From: a virus
Reading direction: 5' to 3' (one strand)
Virus record (IMG/VR): IMGVR_UViG_3300036761_003567
Span: 43,224 to 107,223 of that record
DNA: 64,000 bases
Shown: positions 1,681-59,311 of the stretch, in pieces
How positions within the stretch are numbered: the stretch's first letter is position 1
Layout of the letters: each line of letters opens with the position of its first letter
Made by a program: the position numbers and the translations under genes
The notes under the pieces: generated by a model
The model's input: only the letters and a program-made list of their open reading frames with translations
Databases searched by the model: none
Told to the model about the DNA's origin: nothing

Positions 1681-2388
1681 ATGACTTTCACTCAGGACTT
1701 CCCTGAAACCTCCAGTCTCCTACAATACTACCTCTTTCTGGATAGAAATATGAACAAGGATAGAAGGCACAGGATGCTGTCGTTGCTCGGAGCAGTATGC
1801 CACGAATGCCAGATGTGCGTCCTCGGAGAGCATGCCCAGGAAGTCAGGGGGCACAAATTCGACCCGCATTGCTGGAGTTCGATGAAAGTCTCAAAGATCA
1901 TGGTCATCGGACAGGGGCCTGGCCTGAATGAATGTCTGGAGGGGGTGCCATTCGTAGGGGATTCAGGCAAGAACTTCAATGAGGAGCTCGCGCGGCACGG
2001 CCTGACCCGGGACAATTTCTACATCAGCAACACGGTAAAATGCTATGCGCCTCAGAATCGTGCGCCGACGGAATCAGAAGTCAGTGCGTGTAAGCTCTTC
2101 TTACAGATGGAAATGGCCATTTTGAGGCCGGTGCTCATCGTGACCCTCGGGCAAGTCGCCTTCGACAGGATGTGTCCAAACCACGATTACTCGTCAAGCT
2201 TGGGGACGATTTCCAGAGATAACGGTTCGGGCCATGTGCCTGTCTTTGCGGTTTATCATCCGTCGCCGAGGAACTTGGAAGTGCCAGAACGGAAGGCGAG
2301 ATTCAAGAGACAGATGGCCGTCCTTTGTGCTCTCGTTAAGAAGATTGAGGCTGGCGCTCTAAAAGATAGCCCTGAGTCGTTTTCTTGA
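1681..2388 (+). CDS. uracil-DNA glycosylase, family-4-like
   Basis: CxxC cluster, GQGPG..E..G.PFVG.SG, N.VKC...NRAP, LGQVA and YHPS motifs. Confidence 0.85.
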   Translation: MTFTQDFPETSSLLQYYLFLDRNMNKDRRHRMLSLLGAVCHECQMCVLGEHAQEVRGHKFDPHCWSSMKVSKIMVIGQGPGLNECLEGVPFVGDSGKNFNEELARHGLTRDNFYISNTVKCYAPQNRAPTESEVSACKLFLQMEMAILRPVLIVTLGQVAFDRMCPNHDYSSSLGTISRDNGSGHVPVFAVYHPSPRNLEVPERKARFKRQMAVLCALVKKIEAGALKDSPESFS

Positions 2389-2680
2389 GCTTCCAACCAT
2401 CCTTCTCGACGAACTTCCGCAGCTTGCAGATGAGGGCGCTCGGGAAGCAGATTCCGAAGGCTTCTACCAGGTCCTTCGACGACACAGGTCCGCCCGCGGT
2501 CTGAAGCTTGTCCCTTAAGATCGTCAGCTTTTCCGGGCTATAAAGACAGAAGACTTCTCTCGGCTTGGACGCATCGATGAGGGATTTTAATCTCGATTGG
2601 AAAGTATCTGAAAATACGGCGGGGACTATCGTCCTGACTTCCTCGTCAGTAATTAAGAATACGTTCAGTATGTTGGGCAT
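2336..2680 (-). CDS. hypothetical protein
   Basis: 114-aa ORF with GTATTT 8 nt upstream of the ATG. Confidence 0.55.
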   Translation of the reverse strand: MPNILNVFLITDEEVRTIVPAVFSDTFQSRLKSLIDASKPREVFCLYSPEKLTILRDKLQTAGGPVSSKDLVEAFGICFPSALICKLRKFVEKDGWKLKKTTQGYLLERQPQSS

Positions 2681-5688: not shown

Positions 5689-6081
5689 ATGGCTATTGTC
5701 AGCGCATTCCGGATCGATGACGTCGTGTATCTAAGGTCCTCGGCGCAGATCGGCTTCCTGGAAGCCTACAAGATCAGCGGGATCTTCCAGCTCAGGAACG
5801 ACCGGTATGTCTACACGATCGACATCAACAGGAGGCCGCCGTCCGCTCAGACGCTCGGCGACCATATTGACCTGAAGCGCATCCAGACGCTCTACTTCAC
5901 GGAGGATGAGCTTCTGACGTTCTGCGAGGCCGAGACGCTTGTCGTGCAGAATCTCGAGAGAAGGCTGCGGGAGGAGAAGGCTCGGTTCGCTGCCAGATGT
6001 TCAGTTTCACCAGGATCGGGAAGCACCGGTCCGACTCCGCCTGGAAGCGGGAGCGCCGGATCAACTGGGAGTGCCCCATGA
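5689..6081 (+). CDS. hypothetical protein with G/S/P-rich tail
   Basis: AGGAG SD; AAAAGATA motif upstream. Confidence 0.65.
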   Translation: MAIVSAFRIDDVVYLRSSAQIGFLEAYKISGIFQLRNDRYVYTIDINRRPPSAQTLGDHIDLKRIQTLYFTEDELLTFCEAETLVVQNLERRLREEKARFAARCSVSPGSGSTGPTPPGSGSAGSTGSAP

Positions 6082-6527
6082 ACAGACGATCTCTTTTAAA
6101 AGCCCTCACACTCCTCCCATTTGCACCCCTGCTCGGACGCAAGACAGAAGCAGCCATTCCGAATGGAGAAGACGACCTAGCCTATTGGCGGCGCATTCCG
6201 AATGGAGAAGACGACCTAGCCTATTGGCGGCACAAAGTAGAGCATTGCGAATCGATTGGGGACCATAAGAAGGCAGAGCTTTACCGCAGGAGACTGCTGC
6301 TCGCCGAGGACGTCGCTCTAATCCACGACATCCAACGGGCCAGAAATGGTCGGAAATTCTCTATGCACGTGGAACGTGTTGGTCGGGAAACTCTTTGCGT
6401 CACGATTCCAGCCGACCTATCGCCCCAGGAGGCCGTGAAGTATCTCGATTCCATAAAGAGACACTTTCGAAAAGTTGGGTGTCGCAATGCACGACGAGGT
6501 CTGGCACAAGCATATCTATTTAGCTGA
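6078..6527 (+). CDS. Tat-signal-like protein carrying a T4 gp20 portal-like fragment
   Basis: ATG at 6078 overlaps the previous stop; MNRRSLLK plus hydrophobic stretch; LLLAEDVALIHDIQRA...DLSPQEAVKYLDSIKRHFRK resembles portal [16 protein letters not shown]...GNMPARKA. Confidence 0.6.
   Translation: MNRRSLLKALTLLPFAPLLGRKTEAAIPNGEDDLAYWRRIPNGEDDLAYWRHKVEHCESIGDHKKAELYRRRLLLAEDVALIHDIQRARNGRKFSMHVERVGRETLCVTIPADLSPQEAVKYLDSIKRHFRKVGCRNARRGLAQAYLFS
6155..6231 (+). repeat. 39-bp in-frame tandem duplication (IPNGEDDLAYWR twice)
   Basis: cattccgaatggagaagacgacctagcctattggcggc at 6155 and 6194. Confidence 0.95.
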
Positions 6528-8308: not shown

Positions 8309-8631
8309 GCTACTGTGGAATGCGTTTTCCAGGGTCGCCAGGTCTACTTCAAATGAAAACGTGGTACAGCGCCATCTGTCGCAAATGTGGAGAGGGCGCG
8401 CAGATCTTCGTCTCAAATCCGAGCTGTACTATGGCCTACCTTGGAGAGAAGGATAAGGAGATTCAAGCCTTCCTAGAGAAGCACTTCGGATGTGAGCTCG
8501 AGCTCATCTGGCGGGATGACCAACTGGACGCACTCTTCAATTCGGGCTGGAAAGTCAGCATTCTCCCGGGCGTCTGCCGTTATTTCCGACCGGAAAGTAT
8601 TTCATCTCCGTGTCCAAGCACGCCTTCGTAA
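8305..8631 (+). CDS. hypothetical protein
   Basis: Fills the gap between flanking genes; CxxC...HxxC; start uncertain. Confidence 0.5.
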   Translation: MSYCGMRFPGSPGLLQMKTWYSAICRKCGEGAQIFVSNPSCTMAYLGEKDKEIQAFLEKHFGCELELIWRDDQLDALFNSGWKVSILPGVCRYFRPESISSPCPSTPS

Positions 8632-9794
8632 TGTGTCAGTACACGAAGCAGTCCTCTCGTCCGCTCATGGCTGCCTTCATGGACGACGGGAGTGATGCCG
8701 TCAGATCGTACCCCCTGCTTCTCTCTGGCGTCGGTCTCAGCTTGAAGACGGTCTGGGAGAGCGCAAAGGCCATCCTTGGAGAATTCAAAGGGAGTCCTCT
8801 TCCCGCCGTAACGATGAACGACTTCAAAACGGTCCTTGATTTCCTGGACCGCGAATGCAACCTACTGGCGCATCCGTTTAACGTCTGGGATTTTGGCATC
8901 CCGAAGCAGCCGAATTACGGCACGCTGTCCGCCGAGAGGGCAAGGGAGATCTGCGAGAAGCTCGTCCGCGGCGTTGCCAGCATCCAGCCCACCCCCTGGA
9001 TGAAGCTGCTTGGAAGAGCCACGCAAGTCTACCACATGCTCCAAAAGCGCGGTCTCATGAATGGCCATCTTCTTACCTATCCTCGGTATGTCCTCAACAC
9101 GGTCAGTGGCCGGTCGAAGACGCTGGGTTTCAACGTCCAGGGGACGGACGCATCCTATGACGTGAAGCACCCCGATGAAGAAAAATCCTATTTCATCCAT
9201 CTGGACTGGATCTCAGCAGACCTTAAGGCTGGCCAGATCCTGAGCGGGGACGAGCTCCTTGCTGAAGCCTTCAGGAAGTCCGATCCCTACACCGTCATGG
9301 CGAAGGGAGACCTGACCCGGGCAGATTGCAAGGGCATGATGATCCGTGCGCTCTATGAAATGGATCAAGATAGTCCAGCCCTTCAGTTCTGGCCAGACCT
9401 TCAAAAATGGGTCGCGGTCGAAAAAGCCAAGTTGGAAGACAGAGGCTGGACGGAGTCCGTTCTGGGTAGAAGGTTCAGAATGGCCACAGAAGGCGATCCT
9501 CTCCACAATATGAGGAGCGTATTTAACGCCTCGCTCCAGGGGACGGTAGTGCACGCCATGCACAACGCCCTCTGGCAGATTTACAAAGTGATGCCTGATT
9601 GTATCGTGGCGGAGATGCACGACTCGATTACTCTGGCAGCGAACAGGCATGCGATTAAGGAAGTTCTGAATGTCGGCGTCGAAGCCATGCTCCATCCGTT
9701 CAAGGACATACTAGATAGCAATCCGACGTTTCCGCTTCGGATTTACGTCGGCCGTCATTGGAAGAAGTGGAAGCTTTACAAGGAAATCCGATGA
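8610..9794 (+). CDS. minimal family-A DNA polymerase-like protein
   Basis: TVSGRS..FNVQ, motif A DWISADLK, motif B R.DCK....LY, NASLQG, motif C MHDS. Confidence 0.8.
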   Translation: MSKHAFVMCQYTKQSSRPLMAAFMDDGSDAVRSYPLLLSGVGLSLKTVWESAKAILGEFKGSPLPAVTMNDFKTVLDFLDRECNLLAHPFNVWDFGIPKQPNYGTLSAERAREICEKLVRGVASIQPTPWMKLLGRATQVYHMLQKRGLMNGHLLTYPRYVLNTVSGRSKTLGFNVQGTDASYDVKHPDEEKSYFIHLDWISADLKAGQILSGDELLAEAFRKSDPYTVMAKGDLTRADCKGMMIRALYEMDQDSPALQFWPDLQKWVAVEKAKLEDRGWTESVLGRRFRMATEGDPLHNMRSVFNASLQGTVVHAMHNALWQIYKVMPDCIVAEMHDSITLAANRHAIKEVLNVGVEAMLHPFKDILDSNPTFPLRIYVGRHWKKWKLYKEIR

Positions 9795-22825: not shown

Positions 22826-23278
22826 TCAGAAAGAAATAACCCGATTACCGAGTTCGCCGATCGGACCAGAAACCGTCTCGCCCGCCTTCTTCCCGTCCAG
22901 ACGCCATTCCTTCCCGTCCCAGACCAGCACGCCGAATCCCTGGATGGAGATCTTCTTGCCAAGGCCCTCTGCAGTCAGCGTGACCTCCCTGACCCCATTC
23001 ACGGGGGCGGAAGAGACGGAGACCTGGACCGCCTGAGGTGAATATTGGCCCTGATTACCCAGACCCTGCAATCCCACAGAACCCTGCCAGCCTTGATAAC
23101 CCGGCGGGCCGACAAACCCTTGAACGCCTTGAGAAGGGCCAGGGTAGATATCATCATCTGGAGCAAGCGGATTCCAGTTGGGATTGACGGCTCCGGGAGC
23201 TGTAATTGGCTTCGCCTTTCCGGCAAGAAAACCCTTCTTGCCAGTCAGCTTCTTGATGAGGTCTGCGAGCGGGCTCAT
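22826..23278 (-). CDS. hypothetical protein with a short collagen-like G-x-Q run
   Basis: QGVQGFVGPPGYQGWQGSVGLQG. Confidence 0.6.
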   Translation of the reverse strand: MSPLADLIKKLTGKKGFLAGKAKPITAPGAVNPNWNPLAPDDDIYPGPSQGVQGFVGPPGYQGWQGSVGLQGLGNQGQYSPQAVQVSVSSAPVNGVREVTLTAEGLGKKISIQGFGVLVWDGKEWRLDGKKAGETVSGPIGELGNRVISF

Positions 23279-24237
23279 GTCGGATCCACCTTTCTGCCTC
23301 CCATCTTGCCAAGCGGCAATCCCGACGGTTTATCTATGACCGCGGGAGGGGAGAGCGGATTACCAAAAGCAGGCAATTGCTTATTCTGGAGTTGTAGGAT
23401 GCCCAGCTGTTGCAGTTTTTGCAGAGTTGCAAAGTCGCAGTTCTTCAAGACATCAGCTAGAGTTGCGGGCGAGACCTGGGACGGAGCCGCCCCCCCGATT
23501 TTATAATCATCTTCTGGCGCATATAGGGAATTTTGCAATTTCTGATTCATGAGGACTAGCTGCTGCTTCAAATCAACTGCCTCTTCCTCTTTTATTTTGG
23601 CAACCTTCTTGGCTTCTTCTGATTCGTAGAGGACCTCCGGTAAGATGATCTCTACGCCCCTCAGGCTGAACGTACCCTCAAATGTGTCCTCTGGATCTGT
23701 TCCTTCGCGCGTGATCAGGACATAAACGGATTTGTCGCTTTTGTCGCCTATTATCTTGATGTTATCAAAAAGAATTTGACTATTCCAGCTGTCTTGGACA
23801 GGGACTACCTTCCTGATTATCTGTGCATTCTCGTAGGGAGACCCCATGTTCGTTATCTTGACGTGAAAGACCATCTGCTTGTTCTCGAGCGACTCTGCGA
23901 TTTTTACTATGTCCGTATCCTGATCATCCTTGGGCAGATCCATGATCTTGGCGATGCAGGACGGACCAAAGTCCGAATTTATGTGTCCGTTAAGCACCAC
24001 GCGTATTGTGGTCCATTTCTTACCATCGCTCTTGAACAATACCCCCGCCGCGCTCTGCTTCTTGGAATAGAAGAGCATATCCCCGTTGCTGTGAAGAGGC
24101 GGGCCCTTGTCGCCAAGTTTCTTGGTCTGGGGCTGGAGATCTTTCGCTTTAAAGGAATAACAGCCATTTGCGGCCTTGTTCTGGCCTTCCTGCCAGCCCT
24201 GGGCTCCAGCCCAACCAGATAGAGGCATGGGAGACAT
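23275..24237 (-). CDS. hypothetical protein
   Basis: 320-aa ORF; GTATTT-N7-ATG. Confidence 0.7.
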   Translation of the reverse strand: MSPMPLSGWAGAQGWQEGQNKAANGCYSFKAKDLQPQTKKLGDKGPPLHSNGDMLFYSKKQSAAGVLFKSDGKKWTTIRVVLNGHINSDFGPSCIAKIMDLPKDDQDTDIVKIAESLENKQMVFHVKITNMGSPYENAQIIRKVVPVQDSWNSQILFDNIKIIGDKSDKSVYVLITREGTDPEDTFEGTFSLRGVEIILPEVLYESEEAKKVAKIKEEEAVDLKQQLVLMNQKLQNSLYAPEDDYKIGGAAPSQVSPATLADVLKNCDFATLQKLQQLGILQLQNKQLPAFGNPLSPPAVIDKPSGLPLGKMGGRKVDPT

Positions 24238-24462: not shown

Positions 24463-24957
24463 TCAAACCTCGCCAAGGGCCTTCTCAAGCCTCTGCCGCA
24501 AAGACTCCGGGTATCCAGCGCGTGATGGAAGCGGAGGCGGCTCCTCAGGAGCAGCCTTAGGGAGCGGAGGCGGCACCTCTGCCTTCTTCTCCGATGCTAG
24601 TTTCGCGACGACAGCCCGCACATCCTTCTCAATCGCGGCTTCCCATTCACCACGGACGTTGTTGTGCCAGAGATTCTTGGGGATCGTCACGCCACCCACT
24701 TCCCACTCCAGGACTTCTATTTCTGCCTTCTGGCCTGGAGCCGCAACCGCAACGCCATCCGCCGCGATAGGCCTCTTCTTACCGAAATCCGGCTTGTCGT
24801 GCTTGAGCTCGGCCCGCCAGTCCACCTCGATGATGTCGCCGACCGAGCGGTCATTGGTAAGCTTTACATCGAAGAACGTCCGAGGATCGAGAGCCACCGC
24901 ATGGCGTCCGGAAATGACTTCGCTGATCGCCTGTTCCAGCCGTTCCAGGAATGTCAT
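24463..24957 (-). CDS. hypothetical late-type protein
   Basis: CAAAGATC-N4-ATG; MTFLERLEQAISE N-terminus. Confidence 0.6.
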   Translation of the reverse strand: MTFLERLEQAISEVISGRHAVALDPRTFFDVKLTNDRSVGDIIEVDWRAELKHDKPDFGKKRPIAADGVAVAAPGQKAEIEVLEWEVGGVTIPKNLWHNNVRGEWEAAIEKDVRAVVAKLASEKKAEVPPPLPKAAPEEPPPLPSRAGYPESLRQRLEKALGEV

Positions 24958-25550
24958 GTCTGATCTTTGCTAAAATAGGGGATTATGCTTCCGTTGTGTG
25001 CCTTATAGAGGACGGCATCAGGCCACTCCTTCCCGATCGCATCCAAGACAGTCGGCTCGTTATCGATCACGAACTTGGGTATGTAGTTCTTCCTCTTGAT
25101 GGCATCCACCTTATATTCTGGCGCCTTCAGCATCCGCTGGCCTTCCGGCTTCAGGATGATATCCGTCAGCGGAATGCCCTTGAGCACTTTCATGGCGCTG
25201 TTGATCATCTTTTCCGGCCGGCCGGAGACGGCTACCACGGGGAGGCTTGACTTGCTGGCCAGGATACGGATGAAATCGTAAATGGCTCTATGTGGCGCAT
25301 CCAGATGCGTGAAGGCGTCGTCCAGGAACATCTTGAAGAACTGACTGACCTTGTCCCTATCCTCCTGGGATTGCTTCGCCTTCTGTTTTAGGGCATCCAG
25401 CTTTTCTTCCCAGTCCTCGGGGGTGGCCTCGATGTCGAGCTGCCTGAGGGACTCTACTGCCCGATTCCCGACCGCGACGAGGGTGTCGTCGATGTCGGTT
25501 ATGATGACCTCGAGGCCGAGGACTTCACAGAGCAGACGTTCGAATGCCAT
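24954..25550 (-). CDS. HAD-superfamily phosphatase (PNKP-phosphatase-like) with LLCE leader
   Basis: DIDDTL, VSGRP, YK, VIDN motifs; CAAAAGTA-N4-ATG. Confidence 0.75.
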   Translation of the reverse strand: MAFERLLCEVLGLEVIITDIDDTLVAVGNRAVESLRQLDIEATPEDWEEKLDALKQKAKQSQEDRDKVSQFFKMFLDDAFTHLDAPHRAIYDFIRILASKSSLPVVAVSGRPEKMINSAMKVLKGIPLTDIILKPEGQRMLKAPEYKVDAIKRKNYIPKFVIDNEPTVLDAIGKEWPDAVLYKAHNGSIIPYFSKDQT

Positions 25551-25579
25551 ACGGTACTTTTGGTTCGTATTTTAATTCC

Positions 25580-26242
25580 ATGGACGCGCCAAAGGTCAAG
25601 AAGTATCCCTTCATCGACGAGGTTGGTTATGTCCCGAATGAGATTATAAAGAAATGGGCGGGGGTCATAGGTAAAATACCCAAAGGGCCTCTGCCCAAAA
25701 TCATCTCAAGCCAGGAAGAATTCGTAAAAGAGTTCGGCACACCCTCACCCGCAAATTCATTCGAGAAGAATTTTACATTTCCCTTGCTCAAGAAAGTGAA
25801 TCCCGGCGTGAATTTCTTCGCCGATAGTCTGGTCAGCGTGCAACCAATGCCGACACCGTCCATGAAAGGGCTGAAGGCAGCCTGGTCCGTAGAGGCTGTG
25901 GAAGACCTAAAGGCGGTTCACGGCATTGACATAGGAGAGCGACTTCAAGAAGAACTGATCCAGGCAATGTCCCAGCAGATGGCCAAAGAGGTCGATGAAC
26001 AGATTCTTAAAGACCTTATAGAGCAGGTCCAGGAAGCGAAGCGTAGGGTGGCGATAAAGGCAGAGGAGAAGAGAAGGGAAGCCGTGTGGCGCAGTACTTT
26101 CAGCGTCATTGGCCGGAGATATTTGGACCCGGAAGAAATAAGAGCCGAAGAAGAGTCGGAAATCGAGACAGTGGAAAGAAAAGTCATCGTGGTCGTGCCG
26201 GACTTGCCGTTCGGATTAGGCTGTAGGCGGGTTCTGGTCTAG
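25580..26242 (+). CDS. mosaic of T4-type major-capsid (gp23) and tail-sheath-like fragments
   Basis: FPLLKKV.P...ADSLVSVQPMPTPS joined directly to LKAAWSVEAVEDLKAVHGID...EVDEQILKDL; upstream KGP..ISSQEEFVKEFGTP; GTATTT-N7-ATG. Confidence 0.75.
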   Translation: MDAPKVKKYPFIDEVGYVPNEIIKKWAGVIGKIPKGPLPKIISSQEEFVKEFGTPSPANSFEKNFTFPLLKKVNPGVNFFADSLVSVQPMPTPSMKGLKAAWSVEAVEDLKAVHGIDIGERLQEELIQAMSQQMAKEVDEQILKDLIEQVQEAKRRVAIKAEEKRREAVWRSTFSVIGRRYLDPEEIRAEEESEIETVERKVIVVVPDLPFGLGCRRVLV

Positions 26243-29526: not shown

Positions 29527-29647
29527 CCGTATTTCATTCCGGGTGGCGCGCGGGGTCTGCCGAATAAGTGCCTTGTGGCACAAATAAGGCAGGGCGGCTC
29601 GAGCCGACACCATACTCCGCGCGCTACCCGTCCTCGGAGGCTAGACA

Positions 29648-30268
29648 ATGGGTTTAGACGAGCCTGTTTGCCCGAGATGTGGAAGTCGGGAGTGGTCCCG
29701 CCATTGCCATGAGGGTACGTGTTTCTACGTCGTCCCCGCCGAATTAGACCCTGGTACCCAATATGGGCCAGACCCGGAAGCGTCACCCTTCTACAAAGAA
29801 GAAACTAATAAGCTCCCTACTCACGTCGTCGAGCCCGTCATGATCAGCAAAGGCTATAGTCCCATTCCGCAACAGCATGTGCCTCCCGAACTCTTGGAAA
29901 AGCTCAAAGCCGTAACTGCAGAACGAGATGCTCTTAAAGCCGACGTCAAGCGGCTGGGCGGGATGCTGGGAGAGAAGTTGCTGGAAAAGGTGGATGGGGC
30001 TCTCAAGACTCTCTCCGCCGTCGAGGACTCGCGGGAAGCCTACCATAAGGAGCTGGTAGCAGAGAATGAGAAGCTCCGGGAGGAGCGAGATACCCTGCGG
30101 GCGTTATTCGCCGAGGACCGTTCCTACGATGACAAGAGCATCCTGGACCACATGGACATAGCGGGGGTGTTGCTTCACAATAAGTGCGGAGAGGTGGGAT
30201 TCGCACTCAGCAATAAGTTCTCCGGCTGGATCAAAAAGGCGCAGGCCGTCATATCGGGTAAGACATGA
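29648..30268 (+). CDS. hypothetical coiled-coil protein
   Basis: GGAGG SD; TAERDALK segment shared with 37114..38115. Confidence 0.6.
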   Translation: MGLDEPVCPRCGSREWSRHCHEGTCFYVVPAELDPGTQYGPDPEASPFYKEETNKLPTHVVEPVMISKGYSPIPQQHVPPELLEKLKAVTAERDALKADVKRLGGMLGEKLLEKVDGALKTLSAVEDSREAYHKELVAENEKLREERDTLRALFAEDRSYDDKSILDHMDIAGVLLHNKCGEVGFALSNKFSGWIKKAQAVISGKT

Positions 30269-30864
30269 ATAACTACATCCTGATCGCAGCACGTGTGGCG
30301 GCTGGCTACCACCAGCAGCAAGTCCGTAAATATACCGGTGCCCCGTACATTGTGCACCCCGCCCGGGTGGCTGCCCGCCTGACTCGTCATCCCTTGGGGA
30401 CCGAGGAAGGCGTCTGTGCGGCGTGGCTTCATGACGTGCTGGAGGACTGTGAAACCAGGCCACGCGACATACGGCTCTCGTTCCCGGATGAGCCCATACT
30501 ATCCGAGGATATCGACTATTTCCTGGGGAAGAAGACTGATGAACGCCATTTCGGCGAGCGGGTGGCCGATCTGATCCTGGAGCTCACCAATCCGTCCAAG
30601 CAGCATCCAGAGCTGCCGCGAGCCGAACGCAAGAAGATGGACCGGGATCACCTGCTTACCGCCTCCGTGCAGGCTAAGCTCATTAAGTTAATAGACAGGA
30701 CGGACAACTTGCTGGAAATGGGCGATGCGCCGGCCGACTTCGTCCAGGTGTATGGGGAGGAGTCCAAACTCCTGTTTGAGGTGTTGAGCGGCACGGATGT
30801 AGGGCTCGAGCAGGAATATATTGCCGCCCTGCACGCCGCACTCAGGAAGGTAGGACGTCCATGA
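30265..30864 (+). CDS. HD-domain (p)ppGpp hydrolase-like protein (small alarmone hydrolase / Mesh1-like)
   Basis: H..Q.RK....PYIVHP..VA, AAWLHDVLED, ELT, IKLIDRTDN. Confidence 0.85.
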   Translation: MNNYILIAARVAAGYHQQQVRKYTGAPYIVHPARVAARLTRHPLGTEEGVCAAWLHDVLEDCETRPRDIRLSFPDEPILSEDIDYFLGKKTDERHFGERVADLILELTNPSKQHPELPRAERKKMDRDHLLTASVQAKLIKLIDRTDNLLEMGDAPADFVQVYGEESKLLFEVLSGTDVGLEQEYIAALHAALRKVGRP

Positions 30865-55751: not shown

Positions 55752-57222
55752 GTTCCTAGGAGAACGTGTATGAACATGGAAGATCCGGACGAGCCAGAAG
55801 AGTTCGAGGGGCCTGACCCCAACGGCGAATACGGGGGCGCCTTCGGGGGCGGCGAGGAGCCCGAGGGAATGCCATCGCCTTTGGAGATCAAAGGCATGCT
55901 GGGGGAGCTGGGGAAGATCCTGGGCGGCGGCAACATCTTCGCTACCGTCGTCCCCTCTCTCGTCCCCTCCCGGTACGCGAGCCTCGTGTGTCCGCCCAGC
56001 CCGGAGGACGTGGCCAAGCTCAAGGTGAGGTTCGACCAGCACGTCGCCGAGGCGAAGGCTCTCATCGCCAAGGCCAAGGACGAAGGCAGCCCGCCGACGC
56101 AGGAGATCATGCAGTCGCTTGGACAGGTCGCCCAGGATGAGGAACTCCTGAAGCGCGCCCAGTCCCTCGTGAATTGAGGGCAGCCATGGAAGACAAGTAC
56201 TGCGACATCTGGCGCATCACACTGGCGTCTGGATCTACGGTCCATATCGCCATCCAGGTCAAGTCCAAGACATCCAGCCCGGAGGACGCGTTAGCCGCGC
56301 TCCGCTCAATGGAGTTGTACAAATCGCTCGTCGTGAAGTCCCTCGAGCGCGTGGGTGGAAGCGACTGCTTCTACTTCTCCAGTCTTGAGGTAAGGAAGGC
56401 CTGGTCCGTCGTGATTCATGCCACCTAGGAGGCCAGATGCCCAAACGCGTTCCGCCGAAGTTCCGTCGTCTCCCGACCCTGAACGAGACCGCCTCGGTCC
56501 TGGAACCGGGAGCGCCGGAATTCATCACCATGGAGGTCAGCACCTCCCCCGGTGAGGAAAAGAAGAAGATCATCTACATCCGACAGGACACGCTTCCCGA
56601 GAAGCTGCGCAAGGACGTCGGCAAGGCGGTCATCGAGAAGTGCCTCGGCCTGCCGCTGTTCCAGACCCTCGGGAACCTGGGCCAGCGGATCCTCTTGGGA
56701 GACGACGTGCCGATCTCGACCGGGAACAAGACGGACGGGCCGAGCGATCCGGAGGGTCCGGATCTGGCCACGGAGGGGGACAAATGAAGCGCCACGGGAT
56801 ACCTCCGATCCGGGTCAAACGCGGGGACATCTGTGTGCAGGGCAAGCTGCGTCTAGAGGCTTGGAAGCAACTGCGCAAGGGGAGCAAGTGAAGATCATCA
56901 AGAAGTACCTGATCGAGAGGCCCATCGGCATGATCCGGGTGCCGAAGGGTGCCACGTGCCTTTCAGCCAGCATGGACGAATACGACCGAGACGAGCATGG
57001 GGAGAGGGTCCTAGTCGTGTGGGTGATGTACGACTGGACCGATCCGATGCCGCCGAAGGGAACGGAAGCGTGGGAGACCAGATTTATCCAGTGCGAGACG
57101 GCGGACTCCCTCTTCACGCCTGGACGTTTCATCGGCTCGGTCAGGTACGAATACGCGAGCGGCGGGGTCACCACGTACCACCTGTTCGAGTCCGATGGCG
57201 AGCCTCCCAAGAAGGAGGGATA

Positions 57223-58733: not shown

Positions 58734-59311
58734 AGACCACGGTATTCATGGTCCGGCACAAGCCATCCAAGCGCTGGCTTCCCAAGACGGCCGACGTCGG
58801 GTGCCAGGACGCATCTGGGTGGGTGTCCGACCTCTGGGACGCCAGACAATACAAGGGTGAGGAGTCGGCTCGTGCAGCCATCTTTGCCGCAGGCGCCACT
58901 CCATACGGGATTCAGGCTTACCGTCTCACTTGGGAGCAAAAGAAGGCCAAGCGCCAGGCCTACGTGGACCTGTGCGAGGTCGTGAAGGTGGATGTGAATT
59001 TCACCCTTACTTCGATGCCGTCGCGGTCAGCCCCGTTCGGTCAGGTGGGTGGCCGCGTATTGGAGGCCTAATGAGCGACGAAAAGCACGTCATCTGCCCG
59101 TTCGAGGACTGCCATGCCAGCGGCGCCTACATCACCGTCCACATCGAAGCCGAGGACGTGACGGGCTCCGGCATCCAGCATACGGCCCTCTGCGGCCTGT
59201 GCAACAGGACCTTCGACATCACCGAGGACGAGTACGACCGGCACGTCGACCAGATAGAGCACGCCCTGGCGCACGCAGGCTCCGTTCCCCACGTCCATTA
59301 GGAAGGAGACC

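What the first reader, a model, noticed from the sequence alone, without database searches (positions are those of the whole stretch)
25580..26242. Mini-protein spliced from non-adjacent capsid motifs, including the Gol-equivalent peptide, plus a sheath-like motif
Seen: FPLLKKVNPGVNFFADSLVSVQPMPTPS is followed immediately by MKGLKAAWSVEAVEDLKAVHGID...MAKEVDEQILKDL and preceded by KGP..ISSQEEFVKEFGTP. Known (from memory): in T4 gp23 the first block corresponds to the Gol peptide (VRRAIPNLIAFDICGVQPMNSPTG), which binds EF-Tu and activates Lit. The second block (LKA.YS.ELAQDL.AVHGMDA) lies far downstream in gp23. KGP...S...F...FG.P is typical of gp18 sheath N-termini. The gene has the GTATTT motif rather than the late-type one. 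Inference: a capsid mimic, decoy or assembly modulator.
Basis: partly seen in the sequence, partly recalled or inferred. Interest (0 to 1): 0.85.

Follow-up and report, generated by a model that had tools for sequence, protein, structure and literature searches.

The report
Tagged capsid-excerpt mini-protein, huge phage
An uncultured huge phage keeps a small, conserved gene whose product strings together short copies of the most conserved bits of its capsid and tail-sheath proteins and ends in a peptide tag shared with four other proteins. It belongs to a class of "tagged fragment" genes for which I found no published description, and its job, probably molecular mimicry, is untested.

Summary
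Window 25580-26242 (+) is a real 220-aa gene. Seven same-sized homologues from independent assemblies share the junction.

It is a mosaic:
- a capsid N-terminal motif (res 20-34);
- a motif matching the phage's own sheath N-terminus (res 27-57, z 7.2);
- the Gol-equivalent gp23 block (res 63-93);
- four residues later, the E-loop return strand plus spine helix (res 96-151). In full-length capsid proteins this lies about 30 to 205 residues further on;
- a private C-terminus ending in PFGLGCRRVLV.

That ending is a tag, PxGx[LMV]GxR[KV][VIL], found 2-3 residues before the stop of exactly five ORFs in this 107-kb record. It is invariant in homologues of two unrelated families.

It is not a capsid or vertex protein: E-loop and A-domain are missing and no fold is predicted. 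The Gol/EF-Tu idea is weakened, because that block is the least conserved part.

Other huge phages carry dispersed mini-ORFs with gp23 excerpts and their own shared tag. One complete 533-kb genome has a whole capsid gene, five excerpts and ten tagged ORFs.

This scan has met the class before on other DNA. This lineage and its tag are new to it.

Function is untested. I favour bait-and-handle mimicry.

The parts
25580..26242 (+). Gene for the 220-aa mosaic mini-protein (stop codon included)
   Evidence: Seven homologues of 147-226 aa, 56-99% identical.
25567..25574 (+). GTATTTTA motif 13 nt before the start codon; there is no Shine-Dalgarno sequence
   Evidence: GTATTT[TCA]A lies within 40 nt upstream of about 9 of 157 crude gene calls, against about 1.4 expected; four of them, this gene included, are at -13/-14. 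No sigma-70-type promoter was found.
25637..25681 (+). Res 20-34 (NEIIKKWAGVIGKIP): N-terminal (propeptide-region) motif of gp23-type capsid proteins
   Evidence: BLASTP and hhalign against capsid res 21-35. Shuffle test for res 20-62: z 6.2.
25658..25750 (+). Res 27-57: motif like the N-terminus of the phage's own tail sheath (IG..KG.L..P...S..E..V..FGTP)
   Evidence: z 7.2, 0/2000 shuffles. Weak phrog_23 hit on res 27-62.
25766..25858 (+). Res 63-93: gp23 block 1, the Gol-equivalent stretch ending VSVQPMPTP; the least conserved part of the family
   Evidence: Conservation.
25859..25870 (+). Res 94-97 (SMKG): the junction that replaces the whole E-loop and insertion domain
   Evidence: The junction is present in P0001-P0004.
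25865..26032 (+). Res 96-151: gp23 block 2, the E-loop return strand plus spine helix
   Evidence: Pfam 3e-10. hhalign probability 98.8%. T4 gp23 257-308. AF2 helix with pLDDT 74-87.
26033..26083 (+). Res 152-168: charged helical linker that varies in length between homologues through EQVQEA-type duplications
26084..26197 (+). Res 169-206: private, highly conserved C-terminal region (VWRSTFSVIGRRYLDPEE.., acidic stretch, KVIVVV); no detectable capsid-protein homology
   Evidence: No hhalign or HMMER match. Dynamic-programming alignment against shuffles: z 0.9.
26198..26239 (+). Res 207-220 (PDLPFGLGCRRVLV): the C-terminal tag shared by five ORFs of this record
   Evidence: Invariant except 3 positions in all homologues.
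23275..24237 (-). Second tagged gene (320 aa, ends PLGKMGGRKVDPT), same GTATTTAA motif at -13
   Evidence: The tag is invariant in 7 homologues down to 51% identity.
22826..23278 (-). Third tagged gene (150 aa): collagen-like repeats, then GVLVWDGKEWRL, ending PIGELGNRVISF
   Evidence: Weak tail-fibre PHROG hits, E about 0.02.
58751..59071 (+). Probable fourth tagged gene in the window (about 106 aa, ends PFGQVGGRVLEA). A fifth lies outside the window at G000:C1:35130-35747 (ends KPGELGERKVEA).

Best explanation
The gene encodes a modular 'bait and handle' protein.

**Bait.** The bait is a string of short excerpts of the most conserved, interface-forming segments of two virion proteins:
- the gp23-type capsid N-terminal motif;
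- the strand leading into the E-loop;
- the E-loop return strand plus spine helix;
- the sheath N-terminal motif.

It cannot fold as a capsid subunit. It is predicted to be one long helix with flexible flanks. I propose that it acts by mimicry: it occupies whatever normally recognises those conserved segments. I think host pattern-recognition defences that sense conserved virion proteins are the most likely target.

**Handle.** The handle is the C-terminal tag PxGx[LMV]GxR[KV][VIL]. It would couple this protein and four other tagged proteins to one common partner.

**Shown:** the mosaic anatomy, the conservation pattern, the shared tag, the non-structural gene context, and the recurrence of the design in other huge phages that also keep an intact capsid gene.

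**Inferred:** that it binds anything, what it binds, and that the outcome is inhibition.
For: - **Anatomy:**
- **Not an independent fold:** AF2 pLDDT 44 and 51; only helix 120-175 is confident.
- **Selection on bait and handle:** region identities are N-terminus 0.86, spine block 0.71, C-terminus 0.84; the tag is invariant. The tag of an unrelated tagged family is invariant at 51% overall identity.
- **Tag statistics:** 4 of 157 gene tails match against 0.04 expected, with no internal match in 31,000 residues. A tag HMM picks exactly five ORFs, always 2-3 residues from the stop.
- **Gene context:** neighbours are a polynucleotide-kinase/HAD-like gene, GNAT, dNMP kinase and ParB-like genes, not head genes. 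The sheath gene is 64 kb away, and no portal, protease, terminase or second gp23 match is in the record.
- **Two assemblies in one chain:** excerpts of capsid and sheath together argue against a role in a single assembly step.
- **Generality:** G003 (533 kb, complete) has a whole capsid gene plus five capsid excerpts and a protease-like fragment. All end in KKKYRSIDDPW, whose codons differ at synonymous sites. G001 has two excerpts with a shared tail.
- **Precedent for a phage mimic of a virion-protein trigger:** DSAD1 mimics the tail tube protein to trap DSR2 (PMC10973363).
Against: - No partner of either bait or tag was identified.
- Known Avs sensors read whole conserved folds rather than linear segments (bioRxiv 10.64898/2026.01.04.697583). 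Isolated excerpts may therefore not be recognised.
- A decoy that binds a sensor might trigger it rather than block it.
- The host, the expression time and the presence of the protein in virions are all unknown.
- The phage's own capsid gene is not in the 107-kb record (CheckV 29% complete).
- The sheath-motif match, though z 7, is marginal once corrected for 157 possible targets.
- No DNA of the homologues could be fetched, so dN/dS was not computed.
Confidence: 0.38

Rival explanations
1. It is a dominant-negative 'microprotein' acting on assembly. The excerpts are the strands and helices that make subunit contacts: the spine helix, the E-loop base and the sheath N-terminal arm. They would insert into assembling capsid or sheath subunits. 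This could poison a co-infecting rival phage with gp23-type proteins, or hold back the phage's own subunits until the right time.
For: - The retained segments are the most conserved, contact-forming ones.
- G001's excerpts are 62-70% identical to canonical 480-aa capsid proteins, yet only about 30% identical to that genome's own compact capsid-like gene.
- The gene sits among early/middle-type genes.
Against: - G003's excerpts are 43-80% identical to its own capsid protein, so self-poisoning would have to be avoided.
- This reading gives no explanation for a shared tag.
- No assay was done.
Confidence: 0.2
2. It is a head-associated accessory or cargo protein. On this reading the C-terminal tag is a capsid- or scaffold-targeting peptide. 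It would resemble encapsulin cargo-targeting peptides or, functionally, the T4 capsid-targeting sequence. The five tagged proteins would be loaded into, or anchored on, the head.
For: - The tag sits at the extreme C-terminus of unrelated proteins, after Pro-rich linkers.
- GELGERKV resembles the Thermotoga encapsulin targeting peptide GGDLGIRK, which binds the inner face of an HK97-fold shell (PMC10960027).
- Another tagged protein is a collagen-like fibre.
Against: - The resemblance covers only 5-6 residues. The second hydrophobic position of encapsulin peptides is not kept, and this protein's own tag is one residue shorter.
- The genes lie far from structural genes.
- No tag was found in the head module of the nearest capsid-bearing contig, L002.
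- Nothing was tested.
Confidence: 0.17
3. It is a Gol-type EF-Tu binder. The retained first quarter of gp23 would bind elongation factor Tu, as the T4 Gol region does. It would either modulate translation or pre-empt a Lit-like protease.
For: - Block 1 is homologous to T4 gp23 about 94-122.
- A review states that a 29-residue Gol region, together with about 100 aa of the first quarter of gp23, binds EF-Tu (PMC3014915).
Against: That block is the least conserved part of the family: 26% identity and 52% gaps. It is absent from P0005 and degenerate in P0004 and P0007. In other genomes most excerpt proteins carry only the spine block.
Confidence: 0.05
4. It has no function of its own: a decaying remnant of a duplicated or captured capsid gene, for example debris of homing-endonuclease traffic.
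For: - Huge phages carry many gene fragments, and this genome has fractured genes according to earlier first-stage notes.
- The Gol-like block is eroding.
Against: - The ORF is intact in all seven homologues, down to 56% identity.
- The C-terminus and tag are near-invariant.
- In G003 the shared tag is conserved as peptide but not as DNA, and nothing is conserved beyond the stop codon.
Confidence: 0.07

Closest known systems
T4 gp23 major capsid protein and gp24 vertex protein (Pfam PF07068, HK97 fold; PDB 6uzc, 5vf3, 1yue)
   Same: Three segments are homologous and colinear with gp23: the N-terminal motif, the stretch ending VQPM, and the E-loop return strand plus spine helix.
   Different: - It lacks the E-loop, insertion domain, A-domain and C-terminal P-domain strands.
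- It cannot be a capsomer subunit or a vertex paralogue.
- It carries a sheath-type motif and an unrelated tagged C-terminus.
- It lies outside any head module.
'Tagged capsid-fragment mini-proteins' of huge phages, noted earlier by this scan on other genomes and re-found here in G001 and G003; I found no publication
   Same: A small conserved ORF. It holds excerpt(s) of conserved core proteins, followed by a Pro-rich or charged linker and a short C-terminal tag shared by several ORFs of the same genome.
   Different: - A different tag: PxGxLGxR[KV][VIL] instead of basic + RSIDDxW.
- Several excerpts from two different virion proteins sit in one chain.
- There is an extra 50-aa private region.
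- No sequence relative of this lineage is in the scan's notes.
DSAD1 of phage SPbeta, inhibitor of DSR2
   Same: A phage protein that mimics a conserved virion protein (the tail tube) to occupy the sensor's binding pocket (PMC10973363). This is the mode of action proposed here.
   Different: DSAD1 is not an excerpt of the tail tube gene, has no shared tag, and its activity is demonstrated. Here nothing is demonstrated.
Encapsulin cargo-targeting peptides (e.g. Thermotoga GGDLGIRK)
   Same: A short C-terminal peptide on unrelated proteins with a G-x-L-G-x-R-K core; the encapsulin peptides bind an HK97-fold shell (PMC10960027).
   Different: The similarity spans few residues, there is no encapsulin shell gene, and binding is untested.
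Eukaryotic microProteins / dominant-negative fragments, and the T4 capsid-targeting sequence (both recalled from memory, not checked here)
   Same: Small proteins made of one interaction segment of a larger protein; or, for the T4 sequence, a short peptide that sends unrelated proteins to one destination.
   Different: Different kingdoms and sequences. The T4 capsid-targeting sequence is N-terminal and is cleaved off.

Membership tests
gp23-type major capsid / gp24 vertex protein (PF07068, HK97 fold) | Pfam score above the gathering cut-off | tested here: met
   40.5 bits against 24.4, but only profile positions 148-198 of 376 are matched.
gp23-type major capsid / gp24 vertex protein (PF07068, HK97 fold) | A complete HK97 fold: E-loop, A-domain and C-terminal P-domain strands | tested here: not met
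   Only 4 residues replace the E-loop. HMMER and hhalign find no match after the spine helix. Colinear dynamic-programming alignment against shuffles gives z 0.9. AF2 predicts no such fold.
gp23-type major capsid / gp24 vertex protein (PF07068, HK97 fold) | Gene located in the head-morphogenesis module | tested here: not met
   Neighbours are nucleotide-metabolism, GNAT and ParB-like genes. No portal or prohead protease gene is in the record.
Tagged fragment mini-proteins of huge phages (scan class, unpublished) | A small ORF made of excerpt(s) of conserved core phage proteins | tested here: met
Tagged fragment mini-proteins of huge phages (scan class, unpublished) | A short C-terminal tag shared by several otherwise unrelated ORFs of the same genome | tested here: met
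   Five ORFs carry it; 0.04 would be expected by chance.
Tagged fragment mini-proteins of huge phages (scan class, unpublished) | The tag is kept by selection at the peptide level | tested here: met
   The tag is invariant in the homologues of two families. Synonymous variation could be shown only for G003's tag, because no DNA of this family's homologues was obtainable.
Tagged fragment mini-proteins of huge phages (scan class, unpublished) | The same tag sequence as in other genomes (basic run + RSIDDxW) | tested here: not met
   An HMM of 18 such tails finds nothing in G000. This genome uses a different tag.
Gol-type activator of Lit / EF-Tu binder | Homology to the gp23 Gol region | tested here: met
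   Res 63-93 correspond to T4 gp23 about 94-122.
Gol-type activator of Lit / EF-Tu binder | The region is conserved in the family, as expected if it were the functional part | tested here: not met
   26% identity and 52% gaps; the region is deleted in P0005.
Gol-type activator of Lit / EF-Tu binder | Binds EF-Tu domains II/III | not testable with these tools
   This needs a binding assay or co-folding.
Contractile tail sheath (gp18 type) | Sheath domains (PF04984, PF17482) | tested here: not met
   No Pfam sheath hit. Only a 30-residue N-terminal motif resembles the phage's own sheath.
Encapsulin-type cargo-targeting peptide | A C-terminal G-x-L-G-x-R-K-like motif on unrelated cargo proteins | tested here: inconclusive
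   Position and core residues fit. The second hydrophobic residue is not kept, and this protein's tag is one residue shorter.
Encapsulin-type cargo-targeting peptide | Binds the inner face of an HK97-fold shell | not testable with these tools
   No co-folding tool was available, and the phage's capsid gene is not in the record.

The most novel reading that the evidence does not exclude
Huge phages may carry a 'bait library'. This would be a set of dispersed small genes that display excerpts of conserved virion and core proteins (capsid, sheath, prohead protease, perhaps others) on a common peptide handle. The proteins would serve as programmable mimics against host pattern-recognition immunity or against rival phages. 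The window's lineage would show that the design arose or diversified with an entirely different handle (PxGxLGxR[KV][VIL]), and that excerpts of different virion proteins can be combined in one chain.
Probability: 0.3. Interest if true: 0.9.

Novelty: categorically new. Interest (0 to 1): 0.7.

Why it matters
**If the bait-and-handle reading is right.** This would be a general, modular counter-strategy of huge phages. It would be built from the very protein segments that bacterial immune sensors, or rival phages, depend on. The tags would then be handles for finding the unknown partner.

**Even without a function.** The result gives three practical things:
- a clear rule for recognising such genes: an excerpt of a conserved core protein plus a genome-wide C-terminal tag;
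- a warning that Pfam Gp23 hits in small ORFs are not capsid genes;
- two tag motifs that can be searched for.

**The window's protein specifically.**
- It shows a second, unrelated tag.
- It shows a mosaic of capsid and sheath excerpts.
- It argues against a role in a single assembly step.

Tried and rejected
**Ideas tested and rejected**
1. *'Motif skeleton' idea.* A MAFFT alignment placed the C-terminal 70 aa on the conserved motifs of the capsid protein's C-terminal half. hhalign and HMMER find nothing, and a colinear dynamic-programming alignment scores z 0.9 against shuffles. Rejected.
2. *A split capsid gene.* G003 has an intact 478-aa capsid gene besides its excerpts. Rejected.
3. *The tag as read-through into a mobile DNA element.* In G003 the tag codons differ at synonymous sites, including AGC versus TCN for serine, and nothing is conserved after the stop. 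Rejected.
4. *GRRYLDPEE as the counterpart of the KKYRSIDDPWE tag.* The tail HMM does not hit G000. Rejected.

**Analyses that gave nothing usable**
5. Structure: two AF2 runs gave pLDDT 44 and 51. No fold search was run on such models. ESM Atlas gave TM of 0.33 or less.
6. Searches:
   - longer homologues;
   - the metagenome scan;
   - viral contigs for P0044 and P0154;
   - tblastn of two tagged proteins and one tag against phages;
   - the Protein Data Bank for the N-terminus;
   - PF22671;
   - the tag in L002;
   - Pfam and PHROGs for four other tagged or suspected fragment ORFs, including 5997-6527.
7. Literature: no paper contains the RSIDDPW motif, and none describes truncated capsid-protein decoys.

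The 284,750-nt contig holding P0006 and the homologues' DNA could therefore not be read.

Full report
**1. What is at the coordinates**

Window 25580-26242 (+) is an open frame of 220 codons. An upstream ATG at 25544 overlaps the divergent gene 24954-25550 (-). All homologues begin MDAPK, so 25580 is the start.

A word-indexed search of 5.8 billion proteins found seven relatives of 126-226 aa, 56-100% identical, from Logan, ENA and JGI assemblies. An exhaustive profile search of 1.84 billion representatives found only three clusters of this family. The gene is therefore real, rare and conserved. Its odd junction recurs in independent assemblies.

**2. Anatomy**

- *Spine block.* Pfam Gp23 (PF07068) matches res 96-150 only, to profile positions 148-198 (E 3e-10). 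phrog_138 (major head protein) agrees.
- *Two colinear matches to a full-length capsid protein.* The comparison is with a 533-aa gp23-like protein from a viral contig (L002:9098-10696). Res 20-93 match its res 21-100 (37%). Res 98-152 match its res 308-358 (42%). Profile-profile comparison gives probabilities of 82-91% and 98.8%.
- *The junction.* In the mini-protein only SMKG separates the blocks. Even compact 380-400-aa relatives have a 30-40-residue E-loop hairpin there, and large ones have about 200 residues.
- *N-terminal half is itself mixed.* Res 20-34 match the capsid N-terminal motif. Res 27-57 match the N-terminus of this phage's own 973-aa sheath protein (Smith-Waterman 53, z 7.2, 0 of 2000 shuffles; pairwise E 0.004) and not the capsid protein (z 1.1). 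Library profiles are weak (phrog_23 E 0.3), and after correction for 157 possible targets the match is only moderately secure.
- *C-terminus.* Beyond the spine helix there is a charged helical linker of variable length. It is followed by 50 residues with no detectable capsid homology.
- *Fold.* AF2 predicts one confident long helix (res 120-175) and low-confidence flanks.

**3. Conservation**

| Region | Mean pairwise identity, five diverged members | Note |
|---|---|---|
| N-terminus | 0.86 | |
| Gol-like block | 0.26 | 52% gaps; deleted in P0005 |
| Spine block | 0.71 | |
| Linker | 0.64 | |
| C-terminus | 0.84 | no gaps |

The ends and the spine block are the constrained parts.

**4. The tag**

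Following an earlier first-stage note, I tested the C-terminal motif.

- A pattern G-x(1-2)-G-x-R-[KRV]-[VIL] occurs in the last 16 residues of 4 of 157 crude gene calls. It occurs nowhere in their 31,000 internal residues. Random expectation is 0.04.
- An HMM of the tags picks exactly five ORFs, with the tag always ending 2-3 residues before the stop.
- The five are this gene, 23275-24237 (-), 22826-23278 (-), about 58751-59071 (+), and G000:C1:35130-35747.
- The 320-aa tagged protein has seven homologues down to 51% identity in which PLGKMGGRKVD is invariant.
- The pattern was derived from these sequences, so the statistics are somewhat flattering. The invariance in two unrelated families is independent support.

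**5. Context**

The record (G000) is 107 kb, estimated 29% complete.

- Neighbours of the gene are polynucleotide-kinase/HAD-like, GNAT, dNMP-kinase and ParB-like genes.
- The sheath gene is at the far left of the record.
- No portal, prohead protease, terminase or second gp23 match is present. The phage's capsid gene therefore presumably lies in the missing part.
- GTATTTTA sits 13 nt before the ATG. Three other genes show the same arrangement, one of them a tagged gene.
- No sigma-70-type promoter or terminator was found.

**6. The wider class**

The profile search returned dozens of short proteins that hold only the gp23 spine block in non-capsid contexts. Several lie on long contigs.

*G001 (101 kb).* It has two excerpts, corresponding to capsid res about 245-312 and about 410-478. 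They are 62-70% identical to canonical capsid proteins. They share a tail found in no other ORF of that record. There is also a compact 318-aa capsid-like gene.

*G003 (532,729 bp, CheckV 100%).* It has an intact 478-aa capsid gene and four mini-ORFs detected by Pfam that cover different parts of gp23. All end in (K)n-YRSIDDPW.
- A degenerate DNA pattern finds ten such ORFs. They include a fifth capsid excerpt, a prohead-protease-like fragment in which GELDHP reads CELGPV, and a weak gp32-like piece.
- The tag's codons differ at synonymous sites, and nothing is conserved after the stop. The tag is therefore kept as a peptide.
- Related tails (RSI[DT][DE]xW) end at least eight further spine-block proteins from other sources.

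*Other mosaics.* P0044 joins the spine block to a P-loop/terminase-like N-terminal piece.

*Earlier scan notes.* After finding this, I learned that earlier agents of this scan had described the same class in other genomes and had also found no publication. No note concerns this lineage. G000's tag is different from theirs.

**7. Interpretation**

The protein is not a capsid, vertex or decoration protein, and it is not debris.

Its design is: excerpts of conserved, contact-forming segments of two different virion assemblies, then a flexible linker, then a handle shared with other proteins. This is best explained by mimicry with a common downstream partner. I give 0.38 to a decoy-type action on whatever reads those segments, with host sensors favoured. 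DSAD1 is the precedent.

The rivals are:
- dominant-negative action on assembly (0.2);
- head targeting through an encapsulin-like peptide (0.17; resemblance to GGDLGIRK);
- EF-Tu binding (0.05; one search gives the background, speak against it);
- no function (0.07).

The known Avs sensors read folds, not linear pieces, and that counts against the leading reading.

**8. Novelty**

No paper in the searchable library contains the tag motif or describes capsid-excerpt genes. The library is incomplete. I rate the design as lying outside known kinds. Its function remains unproven, and this scan has already met the class on other DNA.

Noticed in passing
G003 (IMGVR_UViG_3300049215_000771): L104-L113, L097: A complete 533-kb phage genome has ten ORFs carrying (K)n-YRSIDDPW. 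Five are excerpts tiling its own 478-aa capsid protein (43-80% identical). One is prohead-protease-like, with GELDHP replaced by CELGPV. One is weakly gp32-like. They occur as tandem clusters at about 351 kb and about 518 kb.
   Followed up: partly
G001 (IMGVR_UViG_3300005825_000057): 56887-57202 (+), 90220-90597 (+), 29532-30353 (-): Two capsid excerpts share a tail (K-run, V.W, then [SN][SN][VI].[DE]) found in no other ORF of the 101-kb record. There is also a compact 318-aa capsid-like gene without the insertion domain.
   Followed up: partly
Proteins P0044, P0019, P0052, P0154, P0025, P0142, P0027: Other mosaics exist:
- P0044: spine block + P-loop/terminase-like piece, on a 345-kb contig.
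- P0019: a Tat-like signal (RRTFLKG) + spine block + block 1, in reversed order.
- P0025 and P0142: spine block joined to the YAPYIPL motif.
- P0027: two spine blocks.
   Followed up: partly
Tails of P0010, P0013, P0036, P0040, P0042, P0055, P0056, P0071 and G003: The widespread tail, a basic run followed by RSI[DT][DE]xW[EQ] at the extreme C-terminus, recalls the C-terminal clamp-binding peptides of T4/RB69 polymerase (S-L-D-x-x-F type). This is from memory only and was not checked.
   Followed up: no
window 25567-25574, and upstream of 23275-24237 (-), 2336-2680 (-), 8610-9794 (+): GTATTT[TCA]A lies 13-14 nt before four start codons, with no Shine-Dalgarno sequence. It lies at about -33 before others. 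This could be a phage promoter giving leaderless or very short-leader mRNAs.
   Followed up: partly
window 22826-23278 (-): A 150-aa tagged protein with collagen-like G-x-y repeats followed by GVLVWDGKEWRL. The latter looks like a fibritin-foldon-type trimerisation end (from memory). The tag follows.
   Followed up: no
window 23275-23367 (-) and G000:C1:35650-35747 (+): Two tagged proteins also share FGNP[IL]..PP about 15 residues before the tag, so the shared C-terminal module may be about 25 residues long.
   Followed up: no
window 25862 (Met95): A gene caller on a 284,750-nt contig called only the 126-aa part from Met95 (P0006, 100% identical). This Met is not conserved in P0005 or P0007, so a conserved internal start is unlikely.
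   Followed up: partly
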